Origin: the human T2T-CHM13v2.0 reference genome, Homo sapiens
Assembly: GCF_009914755.1 (NCBI RefSeq)
Contig: NC_060932.1
DNA: 64,000 nucleotides
Strand: one strand, 5' to 3'
Position numbers and translations under genes: made by a program. Below, piece by piece: positions 31,700-55,506 of the stretch (position 1 is its first letter; the number at the start of each line of letters is the position of its first letter). Below the pieces are notes generated by a model that did not search any database, had not been told where the DNA came from, and saw nothing but the letters and a program-made list of their open reading frames with translations.

Positions 31700-31840
31700 G
31701 TGTAACCCCATTAAGCTAATTATCCTCTCTGCAGATGGCCTCCCGCACTAATCCTCTTGGGTTTGCCATAATCCAGCTCCCTCTGGGGAGAGTGGCCAGG
31801 GTGGCAGGTCTCTGTGCAAATGGACCATCTGTTGGAGCTC
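31700..31840 (+). promoter_or_regulatory. RP1L1: RP1L1 proximal promoter with photoreceptor TF motifs
   Basis: TAAGCT 31712, TAATTA 31717, CTAATCC 31748 and TAATCC 31769 (CRX/OTX2 and Q50 homeodomain types); NeuroD-type E-boxes CAGATGG 31732 and CCATCTG 31825. Confidence 0.7.
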
Positions 31841-31842
31841 AG

Positions 31843-32061
31843 GAGGCTGGGCTCCTGCCCAAGGGACTGGGGCCTCAGGCTCTCAGGCCAAGGAGAGTGG
31901 CCCCGAGGACTGTCCGGAGGAGGGTGGCCAGCCCTGCTGCCCAGAGGGACTGAGCCAGTGGCAGGGAAGGAGGCGGTGTTCCCCCTGGCCTGACTTTCCT
32001 CCAAAGGACGTCCCCCTGAGGCTTAGGGGCTGAGCCATGCCCTTGTGCTCCCTGGAGGACG
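31843..32061 (+). other. RP1L1: RP1L1 non-coding exon 1 (TSS approximate)
   Basis: Strong donor GACG|gtgagt at 32061/32062 downstream of the CRX-motif cluster; consistent with the recalled RP1L1 5'UTR and ~32 kb first intron. Confidence 0.78.
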
Positions 32062-49472: not shown

Positions 49473-51862
49473 TAGACATATGCCACCGTGGCTGGCTTTT
49501 ATTTTTTATTGCTATGTTTATTCCTTCATTTAATGCCAAAAAAGGCTTAGAGGAGTTTTCTGGCCCCTACACTGACATCACACACAGGAGGTCCTCATTA
49601 AGTCTTTTTGCCTAATTGGCTTAATTGTGGTGCATTTGATAAATACTGGAGGAAATCCTGTGCTCTGCTCTGGGGTGAGAGGACCTTGCCACTCTGCGCA
49701 TTCCGCGGCCAAGCCTGGGAGGTTGGGGACTGTGAAGGGGACGCCCCTTACTACGTGGGGAGAGGCAGCCTTGCTGTGAGCATTGAGTTTGAGTCTGGGA
49801 ACCTGACCAGGAAGGCTCAGCTGTCTCCTTGCCTGCTCTATGGCCCTGAGCGAACCTTGCATTCTTTTTCTCTAAATCTCAGCCTGTCTCTCTCCCTCAC
49901 CAGCCTACTGCAAGGCCCACCTGAGAGAGTGAGTGACGATGCTTTGTACACTGCAGAGTGGCCCCACGTAGAGCCCTGCTGTCAGGGCCTCAGGGCAGGG
50001 AAGGTTCTAAGGCTGGGCCAGGCCTGGGAGTTGTGTCAGGGAGCTGTGTGACAGACTGGCCACAGTCCTTGTCACTCCAGTTCCATCCAGGTGACCTGCA
50101 GCTTCCCAGGGCATCCGAACCCAGCAGCCCCAGGGATAGCCAGGAGGGAGTCGGTTCTGATCTGCTGCTGGGCAGGGGAGGGGTCAGGCCCGGCTGGGAG
50201 TAACCTAATCCCAGCGAAGAGCATGTCTGATTGCTTGACCGCTGCCCTCCTGCAGCTGGATTAGCAGCTGTGGCTTGGGGGAATAGGCTTGTTTATCATG
50301 CCCGAGACAAAAGGAGGAAGCTGAGAGCAGTTAAAACAACAGTTCTTCCTGTTGCCCCCACGCCTTTCATCCGAGGAGGCCGTTGTGAAGGAGAGTCCTC
50401 TTGGTGGTCAGGCCAGGGCCTGGGTTGCCATTCGAGGGGGAAGGGAAGAAGGCGGGGCCTCAACTGCACAGGCGAGGCTCAGTCAATCCCACTACAGCCC
50501 CACAGGGCAGATGCGATGTCTCCATTTTACCGAGGATGGTGACTGGCTCAGAGAGGTTGATTCATTCCTCCAAGGCTTCACAGCTGCCAAAGGCTAGCCC
50601 TGGGATGCTGACGGGTCTGGCCGCCTGCAGACCGGCTCCTTTTCCCTTTGCCTCTTGTTGACGCCTTCATGCTGGACAAAGCAAGAGTCACCGGCCCCAG
50701 ATGCCCCCAGAACCCTTCTTTAAAGCCAAGATATTGGGTGTCCTGGAACTCTTGTTATAGACCCAGAAAGTCTGAGCGATGGCAAGGCCCATAAGCATTG
50801 TGGAGTCCAACTGCGTTGCAAATAAGTCATTTGACAGATGAGGGAACTGAAGTCCAGAGAGGTGAAGCAACTCATCCACACCAAAACAGCATTTTAGCAT
50901 GTTGCAGAAGGCAGGTGGTCAGCAGAGCTGTTGAATGATGGAATCTGTGGCAGAGAGCCAGACTCGCGTCCCCACCCCAGCTCCCTGTGCTCTCGGGCCT
51001 GTGCCAGTCTCTTCCATGGGGATGGTTTTGTCCGCGGGTTGGTGCTATAGACTGACCCGGGGGATCTTCCAGTGTCTGCTGGCTCCAGGCATCCCACCTG
51101 GTGGCCTTCTGCTGATCCTGAGTCCCCACTCTCAGCGCTCCATAAGTAACTAATATTTATCTTGGATTAGTTCCAAATCTACTGCAAAGTTGCAAGAATG
51201 GTACAAAAGTCTCCCACATCCTCCACTGTCTCCACAAGCACTCGCTGCTCTTACCACTTACTTTCTTGGCCATCAATAGCTCTGTGTCACGAGGGAAGGA
51301 AAGAAAAGAGCAGAGAAAATGGAGGCTCTGGGCACTGTGTAGATCAGAGACTCCTCCCTTTCTCAATTCCACGGTCCCCTGGAGAGCAACATAGTACAGA
51401 AGTTACCTGGTCTTCTTTCGTGACCATGCCCAGTCTCAGTAGGTATTCCATAGGGATTTGTAGAGTGGAGGAATGGATTGATCTCATACAACCTGAATTG
51501 CGTTGGCTACATTCCTTCAGGACACCTGGGAGAGCAGAAAGTGCATGAGGCGTTGGATCTCTGGCGTGCGCTGGGAATAACCCGGCATGGTAGGGTGAAG
51601 AAGACCAGGGATTAGCCTGGGGTGGGGGAGCATTTCTGGATGCCCAGAAGGGTCCCCTTAGAGAAGGTGATAGAATTATGGGCTGCTGAGGCTAACGGGT
51701 CAGTTGGAGGGCAACTGAGCCTCCATTTCCTCCCCCAGTTTCCAGAGGGGAAAGCCAGGTCCCGGGGAGGTAAAGTGACTTCCTCAAGGACATGCCGTGG
51801 CCAGTGGCAAGATCAGATGAAGACCGCGTCACCCGAGTCCCCAGCCTCTACCTGTTCCCTCC

Positions 51863-52655
51863 CCGGTTCCATTGCTCTGTGCGTTTATGAGGATTAGCCC
51901 ATGTTAATGCAGCAAAGCTCACAAACACTGTCATACATCCCAGGTGGCACTGCAGGGAAAAAGTGACTGAGAAGCCCCAGCACTCTCCTAGGGTTGTGGT
52001 GGATGCATTTCTGGGGGAGATGGGCCTCTTATTCCTGGTGAAGAGAGTCTTGGGGAGACTGGAGGGGCAAGGACCCTTGGTGTCCCTTGAGGAGAGGGAG
52101 TCCCAGTTGGGGTTGGGTAGACTCACACCAGGTGGAAGAGCCATAATGCCTGCAGGTGGACTTGCTCTACCTGAAGGTGGACAGGGGTCCCCGGGGCTGG
52201 TGGGTTCTGTGTGGGGGCTCCTGAAATGCTAGGAATAGCAGCCACTGCAGCAGCTGTCCCTGGGCCTGTGGACTCATTCCTGGGGATGGCTCCTAATCCA
52301 GCAGGAGCCTGGGTGATTGGCACTCTTCTGCCAAACCTAGAGCCTTCTGCAGTTCCAGTAGGCAGTGCCTCAACAATGCCAGGAACGCTGGGGGTGGTCC
52401 CCGGATGGAAATGGAAACCCATTTCTCTCCACACAGCAACACCAGACCTGATCCTCGCTTTCTGTATGTCGGCTGTTTTGCATTCTTTGTGTTGATCTTC
52501 CCCACTTGTCACATCACGGAAAACCGGTCCATATGCCGGGAGAAGCCTCACAGATGCTGATGATGACCATGCGGTTGTCCTGGAGGGTGGGGCTCATCCT
52601 AGGGTCCGTGTTGCAGCCTCTTGCAGCTCTGCCCACAAGCATCGGTGCTGCTCCT
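51863..52655 (-). pseudogene. Degenerate processed pseudogene of SNRPN (SmN)
   Basis: ATG at 52642, TAG at 51990-51988, no introns. Frame fragments KINTKNAKQP...GLVLLCGEKWVS...GPPP, VPITQAPAGL, GTAAAVAAIPSISGAPTQNPP and PGIRGPSPPEMHPPQP* match SmN (KIKPKNAKQP...GLVLLRGENLVS...GPPP; VPIPQAPAGL; AAAVAATASIAGAPTQYPP; PGIRGPPPPGMRPPRP*). An SNRPN-like 3'UTR follows. Confidence 0.88.
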
Positions 52656-55506
52656 TCTCGGGTCCTGGGAGAGCGCATATTCAGAACTGTTTGCAGAAGA
52701 GGGTGACAGGCACATGGTTCAGTTGATTTAGGAGGTGGATAAGTCGGGTGGTGTCAGAGATGAGCCAGGGCACTCTTTTTTCCTCTGGCAGGTGCTGTGT
52801 GGCCTGATAACTGTACCATGTTATGCTCCCATCACTTCTCTTCTTACTCAGACCGCTGTGGTATGGTCCAGCCTGGTCCTCTGAGCTCTATCTGCCTTGT
52901 TGTAGGAGCTGAGGCTGCCTCAGGCCTGCAGCTCGGGATCAGGGTGACTTGAGCCTCCTGGTCAGGCCCTCGGGCACCCTTCTCCACAGGCAGAGAGGGA
53001 GGATATTGTGTCGGCAGTCCTGAAGCCTGGGTTCCCCTCACGTCGGTCAATCGGTTTTCTCAGCTGAAAAACTTCAGGGAGGCTGAAAAGGGATATAATT
53101 CATGCATCCCTCATGGAACTATGTGGAGATTAATTGGACATATACCTTGTATTGTATACCTACAATAATTAGAATATGCCTTGCCATGAAGCAGTGGTTA
53201 CTGAAGCTCGTGTAGTCTGTACTTAGGTCTGGAGAACGTTCCAGGGCAGCTTCAGTCACGCCCTGGAGGTTTGCTGTCCTCCTGGTGCTCTGGGTGGATG
53301 GTGGACTCAAATGATGACCACAGAACAGCAGTTGTTCTGCCTCCTGTGCGGGACGCTGCGCTCCTCTGAGTGGGTTTGCGATTTCCCCGGCCTCCCCTGC
53401 GCCTAGCACATAGTAGAGTCATCGAGGGTGTTTGTGGGGCGAAGCATGCTCCAGGTTGCACGGATGGGAGTGGTGTCCTTGCCCGGGGTTTTGTTTGGCT
53501 GGAAGCTGATGCAATTTGGGGTTTGGGCTTATTACATCCCTGTCTGCCCCGGTCCCCAGATCTACCCTTTGTCCTTTGAACTAAGGGTCTGGCCTTTCTG
53601 GGTTGCCTTGTCAGGCTTCTTGCCCTCTGATTTCGGGTTGGATTTGGTCAATGGGGGCACTAGTGGGAGATCAGAGAGTAGAGGGAGAGAGAGGTCAGCA
53701 TCTCTGCTTCCGCATCCCTGACCTGGCTGCGGCTTTGTGAGGCCAGCATTCCTGGCTCACGGCCCTGGGGCAGCTGCTGTGCAGCTCTAGCTCCCACTGG
53801 CCAGCAGTCTTCCCTCATCCCTCCAGCCACAGATGCGGTCATCGCTGCTGCCATCTCCTGGGAACGTCGCCGTGCTGTTGGATGCAGAGAATTGGACACT
53901 GCCCATGTCTCTTCCATAAACCCCATGGTGCAGACCCTCACTTTCAGAGTGACCCCCAAGGCACTGGTGCTCCTCTGCCCCCAGCAGTGAGTGAGGAAGC
54001 ACACATCTCATTTTGCAGCCTCCGCCCAAGGAGAGGAGAGTGGACATGGATGGCGCTGAAGGATGGGCTGGGCATCCTTAAAGGGATAGCTCATTCTTGG
54101 CTCTGAGTTGTGTCAGAGCCATCAAGGGTCTTCAAAGGCTTCCAACTCCTCATCTTGACCTCGTCCATCCTATATCAAGTCAACCTCAGACTGGGAATGA
54201 GGGGACCCCTGTGTTGGATGAATGTTGATCCGTTTACTCATTCAGCCTCTCAACAAATAGTTCCCGAGCACCTACAAGGTGCTGTGCACTGTGCTGCCCA
54301 CTGGGGAGCCAAAGTCAGCGGCCTCATCCTCACCCTTGGTCTAGCGGGAGAAATAAGGCGTGTAAACACACGGGGATTCTACAGGCCGTGAGTTGGCAGG
54401 AGAATGAGAGGAGCGGAGACAAGGAGCTGCAGGCATGCAGGGGGAAAGGAAAAAGTCGGGATGAGATGGGGGTCCCTCCCCAAGACTTTAGGTGGAGATA
54501 TCTGTATACATCAATAAGTCAGATTGCATAGCTCAGGAGCTGATTGTTACCAATGAGTTAAATGAAAACATGTGAAAGGTGCTTTATAACCACCATCTCA
54601 GACATGCCGCCTCCATTTCCAGAGGAGAAAAGGCTGAGGAAAAATGTTCTAGAACGTTCTAGATGGTGCCAACTCAACTCTAGGATCACAGAGTATTGCC
54701 CAGTTATAGCTAAATCTAAGCAGGGAAAATGGGGGATTTCCCACAGTCGGACATTGGTGCCCCTGGTTGCTTCCCGTTGTTTGTTGGAAGCAGGGCAGGA
54801 GTGCAAAACCACACTCCTGCCTTCACCCGAAGCCTCTTCCGGGCCAGGGTTGCCCCATCTTTGTGCTCTTTGCTTCCTCGACAGGACCTGTCCTCTGGTG
54901 GCCCCTGAAGGCTCCCTCCCCCACTGCCCACCGTGTGAAGCACGATGACAAAATGACAAAAACATTCTCAAGGAAATGAGCTGCTCTGTTCCTGGGGCCA
55001 CCGCAAGTGTCAGAGAAAGCAGGTCTGGGAGTGATTCACTCACGTCCATGGCCTGACTCCAAATCCGCCCCGTGCTGGCTTCCCCCTTCCTGTTTTTGAA
55101 TCCAGACCTTGCCTGGCAGTGTCTTCCCCGCCGTGGAGAGCCCCCCAGGACCCATCGCCCTTGGTCTTCGTCTGTTCAGGGGTGGGCTGCTTCCCTTCGG
55201 CCTCCAACCAGCCCTTGTCCACAGGCTCGGGCGGCACTGGCAGAGAGAACCCAGCGCTTGCGGTCTGAGAGCCAGCTCCAGCCTTGCTGTGGTCGTCTCG
55301 GAAGTGGAGGAGGGGGGACAGGGACAAACCGTGGAACTTTGCCAAGCCTCGGATGTCTCCTTTGTTCAGTGGGATTTCCCGGCCATCTCTCTAGGTAACT
55401 GTAGGAACAGTTGAGATAATGTTTATGTGTATATATAATCCTGCTATACACGGAAAAGAGCTTCACACATGTCATTATGTATTTGAAGAAGTGCTCCCTA
55501 CCCATA

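What the first reader, a model, noticed from the sequence alone, without database searches (positions are those of the whole stretch)
51863..52655. Ancient SNRPN (SmN) retrocopy hidden antisense in RP1L1 intron 1
Seen: the minus strand carries, collinearly and without introns, ATGCTTGTGGGCAGAGCTGCAAGAGGCTGCAACAC (compare SmN MTVGKSSKMLQH), then KINTKNAKQP..GLVLLCGE, VPITQAPAGL, SISGAPTQNPP, GIMALPPG and PGIRGPSPPEMHPPQP-TAG, split across frames. A 3'UTR follows (CTCAGTCACTTTTTCCCTGCA...AGTGTTTGTGAGCTTT...TGCATTAA...ATAAACGCACAGAGCAAT) that tracks the SNRPN 3'UTR as I recall it, up to the poly(A) site. NAKQP, PGIRG and the UTR point to SNRPN rather than SNRPB. The CDS-equivalent is 655 nt (51988-52642), shorter than the 240-codon parent. 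Heavy divergence and loss of tail and TSD imply an old insertion. I do not recall a pseudogene annotated here. It would be a molecular fossil of the imprinted Prader-Willi locus mRNA, and RP1L1 pre-mRNA would carry SNRPN-antisense sequence in photoreceptors.
Basis: partly seen in the sequence, partly recalled or inferred. Interest (0 to 1): 0.8.

Follow-up and report, generated by a model that had tools for sequence, protein, structure and literature searches.

The report
Old decayed SNRPN processed pseudogene
A dead, intron-free copy of the SNRPN messenger RNA sits backwards inside the first intron of RP1L1; it is real and old, but it is one more ordinary processed pseudogene with no sign of function.

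Summary
Window 51871-52654 (minus strand) aligns as one collinear block to the spliced SNRPN mRNA that I rebuilt from the chr15 exons of the same genome. The block runs from 12 nt before the ATG, through the stop codon, to the end of the 3'UTR (238 bits, E 3e-66; the best of 200 shuffles scored 31 bits). All six coding exon junctions are bridged with no intron.

SNRPN, not SNRPB, is the parent:
- The 3'UTR is 86/114 identical to SNRPN's and not alignable to SNRPB's.
- At the 129 coding sites where the two genes differ, the copy agrees with SNRPN at 65 and with SNRPB at 24.
- At the 12 residues where SmN is derived, the copy has the SmN state at 7 and the SmB state at 0.

The copy is dead: 16 indels, 11 of them frameshifting, a net loss of 68 nt, and a 42-codon frame from the ATG. 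Pfam finds no Sm domain. I found no target-site duplication and only a purine-rich trace of a tail.

Its divergence (K2P 0.35) is about 3.3 times that of the chr22 SNRPN retrocopy, so it is old. Its age could not be fixed without other mammalian genomes. RefSeq has no entry here; GENCODE and the retrocopy databases could not be checked. Scientific interest is low.

The parts
51871..52654 (-). Whole recognisable SNRPN retrocopy: 12 nt of 5'UTR, the CDS equivalent and the 3'UTR
   Evidence: Single collinear blastn alignment to the spliced chr15 SNRPN mRNA, positions 101-964, 238 bits, E 3e-66. The pairwise printout shows 552/819 identities and 85 gap columns up to window 51914. The 3' end to 51871 is shown.
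52643..52654 (-). Last 12 nt of the 5'UTR (end of the SNRPN exon that carries the ATG); similarity stops upstream of this
   Evidence: Alignment start. Upstream sequence 52655-52780 scores no better than shuffles against the rest of that exon: local score 13, and 376 of 500 shuffles reach it. A whole-genome search with 52643-53050 found only itself.
51988..52642 (-). CDS equivalent, 655 nt against 723 nt in the parent. It has 16 indels (11 frameshifting). The ATG is kept at 52642-52640 and the TAG at 51990-51988.
   Evidence: 471/649 aligned bases are identical to the SNRPN CDS and 430/649 to the SNRPB CDS.
52492..52639 (-). Equivalent of the second coding exon (Sm domain, N-terminal part); six small indels, the most decayed part
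   Evidence: Junction mapping; indel list.
52384..52491 (-). Equivalent of the third coding exon (KINTKNAKQP..GLVLLCGE..GPPP)
   Evidence: blastn to chr15 L018 2972-3074, 73.8%. PDB human SmB residues 49-92, E 2.6e-5.
52281..52383 (-). Equivalent of the fourth coding exon, with 24-nt and 23-nt deletions in the Gly/Ala-rich part
52150..52280 (-). Equivalent of the fifth coding exon (AAAVAA..SISGAPTQNPP)
   Evidence: blastn to L018 4474-4582, 74.3%.
52026..52149 (-). Equivalent of the sixth coding exon (GIMALPPG.. proline-rich repeats)
   Evidence: blastn to L018 4852-4935, 77.4%.
51871..52025 (-). Equivalent of the last exon: the final 12 codons, the TAG and the 117-nt 3'UTR equivalent
   Evidence: blastn to L018 5070-5186, 77.1%. 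The 3'UTR is 86/114 identical to SNRPN's.
51884..51889 (-). CATAAA, aligned to the parent's AATAAA polyadenylation signal
   Evidence: Alignments.
51841..51870 (-). Purine-rich 30-mer directly after the last aligned base; a possible decayed poly(A) tail (inference)
   Evidence: 24/30 purines, but only 8 are A. 1.5% of 30-nt windows in the surrounding 6 kb reach 24 purines.

Best explanation
It is a processed pseudogene: a reverse-transcribed copy of a mature, spliced, polyadenylated SNRPN (SmN) mRNA from chr15. It inserted into what is now intron 1 of RP1L1 on chr8p23.1, in the orientation opposite to RP1L1.

The copy begins 12 nt upstream of the SmN start codon and ends at the parent's poly(A) site. 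It had no promoter of its own and has since decayed neutrally.

Shown here:
- It is collinear with the spliced mRNA across all six coding exon junctions.
- It ends at the parent's poly(A) signal region.
- SNRPN, not SNRPB, is the parent.
- It carries multiple frameshifts and deletions.

Inferred:
- LINE-1 machinery made it by target-primed reverse transcription in the germ line or early embryo, with 5' truncation.
- It was never functional.
- It inserted after SNRPN arose from SNRPB' in the therian ancestor, and probably around or before the radiation of placental mammals.
- Its presence in RP1L1 pre-mRNA has no effect.
For: 1. The spliced SNRPN mRNA rebuilt from chr15 exons gives the 240-aa SmN. 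The chr8 copy aligns to it in one block of 238 bits, E 3e-66. The best of 200 shuffles scored 31 bits.

2. Against the chr15 genomic DNA, the same copy breaks into five ordered blocks spread over about 2.2 kb (L018 2972-5186), each falling within one of the last five coding exons as delimited. All six CDS exon junctions are bridged in the copy: five without a gap and one next to a 3-nt deletion.

3. On parentage, SNRPB mRNA gives only two weak blocks (43.7 and 50.0 bits), and neither extends past the stop codon.
   - CDS identity is 471/649 to SNRPN and 430/649 to SNRPB.
   - Of the 129 sites where the two genes differ, the copy matches SNRPN at 65, SNRPB at 24 and neither at 24, and 16 are deleted.
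   - The 3'UTR is 86/114 identical to SNRPN's and 51/117 to SNRPB's.

4. SmN and SmB differ at 17 residues. I polarised these with bird, lizard, fish, shark and lamprey SmB. Twelve are SmN-derived. The copy has the SmN state at 7 of them, a third residue at 5, and the SmB state at 0.

5. An AU test rejects a clade of the copy with four mammalian SmB sequences (p 0.009, lnL difference 8.0).

6. On decay, there are 16 indel events, 11 of them frameshifting, and a net loss of 68 nt.
   - 118 of 209 comparable codons keep the parental residue.
   - 2 of 17 parental CpGs are kept.
   - Pfam finds no family in any of four frame pieces at E up to 1.

7. The flanks match nothing else in the genome.

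8. SNRPN arose by tandem duplication of SNRPB' in therians and is absent from platypus, chicken and fish (Rapkins et al. 2006, PMC1626109, passages read).
Against: - Two textbook hallmarks are missing or unclear. No target-site duplication was found between the 66 nt upstream and the 81 nt downstream, allowing 1 mismatch in 10, 2 in 12 or 3 in 14. There is no A-run, only a purine-rich stretch.
- 24 of the 129 diagnostic nucleotides agree with SNRPB. This is expected if SNRPN itself changed after the copy was made, but it was not polarised at the nucleotide level.
- The protein tree leaves the copy in an unresolved polytomy on a very long branch of 1.06. Only 1 of 14 inner branches is well supported.
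- The age rests on divergence alone. No orthologous intron from another mammal was examined.
Confidence: 0.96

Rival explanations
1. It is a retrocopy of SNRPB (chr20), not of SNRPN.
For: The two proteins are 223/240 identical (17 differences), so most of the CDS fits either. 24 of the 129 diagnostic nucleotides match SNRPB. A genome-wide protein search with one 71-aa frame piece also hit the SNRPB exon (49% identity, E 0.07) next to the SNRPN exon (58%, E 0.006).
Against: - The copy's 3'UTR does not align with SNRPB's (51/117 in a forced alignment, against 86/114 for SNRPN).
- blastn to SNRPB mRNA stops at the stop codon.
- 65 diagnostic nucleotides match SNRPN against 24 for SNRPB.
- None of the 12 SmN-derived residue sites shows the SmB state.
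- The AU test gives p 0.009 against a clade with mammalian SmB.
Confidence: 0.01
2. It is a retrocopy of the single ancestral SNRPB'-like gene, made before the SNRPN/SNRPB duplication. It only looks SNRPN-like because SNRPN evolved more slowly.
For: With only three human sequences there is no topology, and a short SNRPN branch would give the same 65:24 split. The divergence is high (K2P 0.35).
Against: With non-mammalian SmB as outgroups, the copy carries 7 of the 12 states that are derived in SmN (A56, I120, T174, A182, I188, A190, I227) and none of the ancestral alternatives at those 12 sites. Seven parallel changes to the same residue in a decaying pseudogene are very unlikely.
Confidence: 0.015
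3. It is an SNRPN retrocopy that has been put to use, for example as an antisense RNA source, as part of an enhancer, or as a modulator of RP1L1 splicing.
For: Intronic retrocopies can matter: PPP1R26P1 in RB1 intron 2 is one example (abstract of PMC4537222, seen in the listing). The RefSeq table lists enhancers and a silencer elsewhere in this intron.
Against: - No listed functional element overlaps 51871-52654, although the hub's list is truncated ('3 more').
- There is no CpG island: 10 CpG in 655 nt at 57% G+C.
- No open frame survives, and no protein family is detectable.
- The longest exact word shared with SNRPN mRNA is 18 nt.
- The decay is spread over the CDS and UTR alike.
Confidence: 0.02

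Closest known systems
SNRPN (SmN) on chr15q11.2, the parent gene; here G000 C15:22711007-22715250, exons delimited
   Same: Same order of sequence from 12 nt before the ATG to the poly(A) signal. 560/775 aligned bases are identical. The copy shares SmN-specific residues at 7 of 12 sites.
   Different: The copy has no introns and no SNURF or upstream exons. It has 11 frameshifting indels and is 68 nt shorter in the CDS. It lies on another chromosome and on the strand opposite to its host gene.
chr22 SNRPN retrocopy (G000 C22:31619333-31620246, minus strand)
   Same: It is also an intronless SNRPN mRNA copy that includes the SNRPN 3'UTR.
   Different: It is much younger: 821/910 identical to the parent mRNA, K2P 0.106 against 0.353. 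It keeps a 184-codon stop-free frame and reaches further into the 5'UTR exon.
SNRPB (SmB/B') on chr20, the paralogue from which SNRPN arose (Rapkins et al. 2006, PMC1626109, passages read)
   Same: Same Sm-fold protein family. The copy's best frame piece matches human SmB chains in the PDB at E 2.6e-5.
   Different: The 3'UTR is unrelated. SNRPB's diagnostic nucleotides and residues are in the minority or absent in the copy.
Named SNRPN pseudogenes: human SNRPNP1 (recalled from memory, not seen in any call) and the mouse intronless SmN processed pseudogene (Grimaldi et al. 1992, seen only as an entry in the reference list of PMC4949425)
   Same: The same kind of object: a processed pseudogene of the SmN mRNA.
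   Different: Different loci. Whether the chr8 copy carries any HGNC or GENCODE name could not be checked. The search for 'SNRPNP' listed 7 papers. I opened 2 of them, and both were unrelated strings: a misspelling of SNRNP70 and a probe name.

Membership tests
Processed pseudogene (retrocopy) | Collinear with the spliced mRNA; introns absent at the parental exon junctions | tested here: met
   One alignment to the spliced mRNA. 6 of 6 CDS junctions are bridged. The parental genomic DNA matches only exon by exon.
Processed pseudogene (retrocopy) | 3' end coincides with the parental polyadenylation site | tested here: met
   The alignment runs through CATAAA (parent AATAAA) to 12 nt beyond it and stops there.
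Processed pseudogene (retrocopy) | Poly(A) tail after the 3' end | tested here: inconclusive
   There is no A-run. The next 30 nt are 24/30 purine but only 8 are A, and 1.5% of local windows are as purine-rich.
Processed pseudogene (retrocopy) | Flanking target-site duplication | tested here: not met
   No 10-14-nt near-repeat was found between the two flanks. At about 30% divergence a TSD would mostly be erased, so this weighs little.
Processed pseudogene (retrocopy) | Lies away from the parent locus | tested here: met
   The copy is at C8:9103871-9104654 and the parent at C15:22.71 Mb.
Processed pseudogene (retrocopy) | Disabled reading frame | tested here: met
   11 frameshifting indels. 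The frame from the ATG ends after 42 codons.
SNRPN-derived (as opposed to SNRPB-derived) | 3'UTR homologous to the SNRPN 3'UTR | tested here: met
   86/114 identical to SNRPN against 51/117 to SNRPB. The genome search hit the chr15 last exon and not chr20.
SNRPN-derived (as opposed to SNRPB-derived) | Carries SmN-derived residues, polarised by non-mammalian SmB | tested here: met
   7 of 12 show the SmN state, 5 of 12 a third residue, and 0 of 12 the SmB state.
Sm/LSM domain protein (functional member) | Recognisable, uninterrupted Sm domain | tested here: not met
   Pfam found 0 families for 4 of 4 frame pieces at E up to 1. The Sm-domain part carries six 1-2-nt deletions and one 3-nt insertion.

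The most novel reading that the evidence does not exclude
The copy may predate the radiation of placental mammals. It would then be a fossil of the SNRPN mRNA from soon after SNRPN split from SNRPB'. It would show that at least 7 of the 12 SmN-specific residues and the present-day 3'UTR and poly(A) signal were already fixed at that time. It would also give a datable marker inside RP1L1 intron 1. It cannot say whether SNURF exons were already part of the transcript, because similarity starts only 12 nt before the SmN ATG.
Probability: 0.4. Interest if true: 0.2.

Novelty: new member of a known kind. Interest (0 to 1): 0.1.

Why it matters
It matters little.

- It adds one more entry to the thousands of human processed pseudogenes, and the RefSeq table supplied with the finding does not list it.
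- Annotation: a protein-level search barely sees it. tblastn with SmN, scaled to the genome, gives E 3.9e-4 without the low-complexity filter and 0.015 with it. Protein-based pseudogene pipelines could therefore miss it, whereas an mRNA-level alignment finds it easily.
- SNRPN history: the copy confirms that SmN-specific residues and the SNRPN 3'UTR are old.
- Nothing suggests a link to Prader-Willi imprinting or to RP1L1 function.

Tried and rejected
- Pfam scan of four frame pieces: 0 families. This shows decay and gives no positive identification.
- PDB search with the 156-aa stop-free stretch 52126-52593: only a chance-level hit to ribosomal protein L27, E 0.17. That stretch mixes frames and is not a gene.
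- tblastx of the 5' part (52480-52760) against chr15 and chr20 genomic loci: nothing better than E 0.038, and none in SNRPN or SNRPB exons. The 5' coding part was recognised only once the spliced mRNA was used.
- Search for SNURF or 5'UTR sequence upstream of 52654: nothing found.
- Search for other copies of the downstream flank 51500-51900: only itself.
- TSD search: nothing found.
- Protein tree: the copy's position is unresolved. Only the AU test was informative.
- Literature: five searches found no paper describing this copy. They were 'SNRPN' + 'processed pseudogene' (16 papers), 'SNRPNP' (7), 'RP1L1' + 'pseudogene' + 'intron 1' (1, unrelated), 'SNRPN' + 'retrocop' (6), and the SNRPN/SNRPB/marsupial search (5).
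- Gray et al. 1999 (PMC148745) is not held.
- Chance similarity of proline-rich, low-complexity sequence was considered and rejected. The non-repetitive Sm-domain part and the 3'UTR align as well as the rest, and shuffles reach only 31 bits.

Full report
**What is there**

On the minus strand of the window an ATG lies at 52642-52640 and a TAG at 51990-51988, 655 nt apart. No frame stays open. The frame from the ATG stops after 42 codons. The longest stop-free stretch, 156 codons at 52123-52593, mixes frames.

**Is it more than chance, and what does it match?**

A DNA search of the window's own genome with 51863-52655 returned six matches:
- itself;
- two adjacent blocks on contig C15 at 22.71 Mb (77% identity each);
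- three retrocopy-like places: C22:31.62 Mb, C1:1.79 Mb and C1:90.25 Mb.

Nothing on C20 was returned.

A protein search with the 71-aa frame piece 52296-52508 hit a C15 exon (58% identity, E 0.006) and a C20 exon (49%, E 0.07). The same piece matches residues 49-92 of human SmB/B' chains in the PDB (E 2.6e-5).

I fetched 30 kb of C15 and 18 kb of C20. The better-preserved C22 retrocopy served as a bridge to locate the exons, and splice sites fixed their limits. The joined C15 exons encode a 240-aa protein ending in ..PGIRGPPPPGMRPPRP. This is SmN: it is 100% identical to SmB over residues 2-52 and differs at the expected places. The C20 exons give the 240-aa B' form.

**The processed-copy test**

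- Against the C15 genomic DNA, the chr8 stretch matches as five ordered blocks (73.8-89.7% identity) spread over about 2.2 kb (L018 2972-5186). Each block falls within one of the last five coding exons as delimited.
- Against the spliced mRNA it matches as one block: window 52654-51871 to mRNA 101-964, 238 bits, E 3e-66.
- The pairwise printout of the same search shows 552/819 identities with 85 gap columns and ends at window 51914. Separate alignments carry the 3'UTR match on to 51871.
- 200 dinucleotide shuffles of the copy gave a mean of 22.4 and a maximum of 31.0 bits.
- All six CDS exon junctions are bridged in the copy. Five have no gap and one lies next to a 3-nt deletion.
- The 3' end runs through CATAAA, which aligns with the parent's AATAAA, to ..AGAGCAAT at 51871.
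- Upstream, similarity stops 12 nt before the ATG. The next 126 nt score no better than shuffles against the rest of the 5'UTR exon: 376 of 500 shuffles reach the observed score. A genome search with 52643-53050 found only itself.

The copy is therefore 5'-truncated, or its 5' end is no longer recognisable. It says nothing about SNURF exons.

**SNRPN or SNRPB?**

- *mRNA alignment.* SNRPB mRNA gives only two weak blocks (43.7 and 50.0 bits). The second ends exactly at the stop codon.
- *Coding identity.* In a three-way CDS alignment the copy is 471/649 identical to SNRPN (K2P 0.35) and 430/649 to SNRPB (K2P 0.46).
- *Diagnostic nucleotides.* At the 129 sites where the two human genes differ, the copy agrees with SNRPN at 65, with SNRPB at 24 and with neither at 24, and 16 are deleted.
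- *3'UTR.* It is 86/114 identical to SNRPN's and 51/117 to SNRPB's in a forced alignment, which is the level of unrelated sequence.

Three human sequences have no topology, so I polarised the 17 SmN/SmB residue differences with outgroups. These were five non-mammalian SmB sequences (bird, lizard, fish, shark, lamprey) taken from a database search that returned 388 hits, of which 120 were listed. Nine went into the alignment.

- Twelve differences are derived in SmN. The copy has the SmN state at 7, a third residue at 5 and the SmB/ancestral state at 0.
- Of the three SmB-derived sites, the copy has the ancestral (SmN-like) state at one, another residue at one, and a deletion at one.
- Of the two unpolarised sites, the copy has the SmN state at one and another residue at one.

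A maximum-likelihood tree of 17 proteins (14 of the 120 listed hits, plus human SmN, human SmB and the copy) is almost unresolved, with only 1 of 14 inner branches well supported. The copy sits on a branch of length 1.06, and its nearest row is human SmN. An AU test rejects a clade of the copy with the four mammalian SmB rows (p 0.009, lnL difference 8.0). Two cautions apply to that test: I named the group after the other evidence was known, and long branches are in play.

Taken together, the copy was made from SNRPN mRNA after SNRPN had diverged from SNRPB'.

**State of decay**

- Relative to the parent CDS there are 16 indel events: 14 deletions of 1-24 nt and 2 insertions of 3 nt. Eleven shift the frame, and the net change is -68 nt.
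- Read codon by codon in the parental frame, 118 of 209 comparable codons keep the residue, 14 codons are broken and 18 are deleted.
- 2 of 17 parental CpGs survive and 6 are now TG or CA.
- The copy has 10 CpG in 655 nt at 57% G+C, so it is not a CpG island.
- Pfam recognises no family in four frame pieces.
- No target-site duplication was found. The 30 nt after the end are 24/30 purine with 8 A, which may or may not be a tail remnant.

**Age**

- Over the whole copy, 560 of 775 aligned bases are identical to the parent mRNA: K2P 0.353, or 0.336 without parental CpG sites.
- The C22 copy has 821 of 910 identical: K2P 0.106, or 0.088 without CpG sites. The chr8 copy is about 3.3-3.8 times more diverged.
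- From the three pairwise CDS distances, I worked out the branches by hand. The copy's own branch is about 0.30, the SNRPN branch since the split about 0.05, and the SNRPB side about 0.16.
- Near-identical predicted proteins to the C22 frame exist for bonobo (96%) and rhesus macaque (89%). This suggests that the C22 copy predates the ape/Old World monkey split, although I did not verify orthology.
- The upper bound is the origin of SNRPN itself. Rapkins et al. 2006 (PMC1626109; abstract and passages read) report that marsupials have tandem SNRPN-SNRPB', that platypus, chicken and fish have only SNRPB', and that the domain assembled 105-180 million years ago.

My inference is that the chr8 copy dates from roughly the time of the placental radiation or somewhat before. 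This carries wide uncertainty, for two reasons. I recall, without having checked it here, that distal 8p has an unusually high substitution rate. And no other mammalian genome could be searched with these tools.

**Context**

By the annotation supplied with the finding, RP1L1 is on the plus strand with exon 1 at 31816-32061 and exon 2 at 63723-64350. The copy therefore lies in intron 1, antisense to the host gene. No listed RefSeq element overlaps it, though the list is truncated. The longest exact word shared with SNRPN mRNA is 18 nt, so an RNA-RNA effect on SNRPN is not credible.

**Known or new?**

The RefSeq table has no pseudogene at this place. Five literature searches found no description of it. 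I could not consult GENCODE, RetroGenes, RCPedia or pseudogene.org. tblastn with SmN against the window, scaled to the genome size, gives E 3.9e-4 without the low-complexity filter and 0.015 with it, so protein-based pipelines may have missed it.

**Verdict**

The object is an ordinary, dead, old processed pseudogene of SNRPN. Interest is low.

Noticed in passing
L009 1267-1821 (-) = G000 C22:31619333-31620246 (-): A much younger SNRPN retrocopy on chr22: 821/910 identical to the spliced SNRPN mRNA, with a 184-codon stop-free frame covering SmN residues about 10-150. The databases hold near-identical predicted proteins: one unnamed 165-aa entry at 100%, a bonobo entry at 96% and a rhesus macaque entry at 89%. 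I did not examine whether it is expressed or under constraint.
   Followed up: partly
G000 C1:1790925-1791449 (L024/L027): Another SNRPN-derived copy on chr1 consists of two abutting pieces in opposite orientation. The 3' part (query 655-909) is on the + strand at 81% identity. A 5' part (query 56-309) is on the - strand at 79%. This is the pattern expected from a 5'-inverted (twin-priming) LINE-1-mediated insertion.
   Followed up: no
G000 C1:90247137-90247311 (L006/L036): A short fragment matching only the SNRPN 3' end and 3'UTR at 74-75% identity. It is probably a heavily 5'-truncated or decayed further retrocopy.
   Followed up: no
whole window (chr8:9052001-9116000 of T2T-CHM13): RP1L1 is on the plus strand at about 9.1 Mb here. 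I recall, without checking, that GRCh38 has it on the minus strand near 10.6 Mb. If so, this assembly carries the inverted 8p23.1 haplotype.
   Followed up: no
proteins P0056, P0063, P0054, P0021: Several database SmB models (a bird, a lizard, the platypus, a shark) have C-terminal halves that do not align with other SmB proteins. These look like mis-spliced or truncated gene predictions. They were used only at sites where they aligned.
   Followed up: no
L009 about 1913-2000 (just 5' of the chr22 retrocopy): The first 87 nt of the chr22 query hit dozens of places in all five fetched chr15 and chr20 loci at 71-90% identity, so it is an interspersed repeat (Alu-like) abutting that retrocopy. 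I excluded it from later queries.
   Followed up: partly
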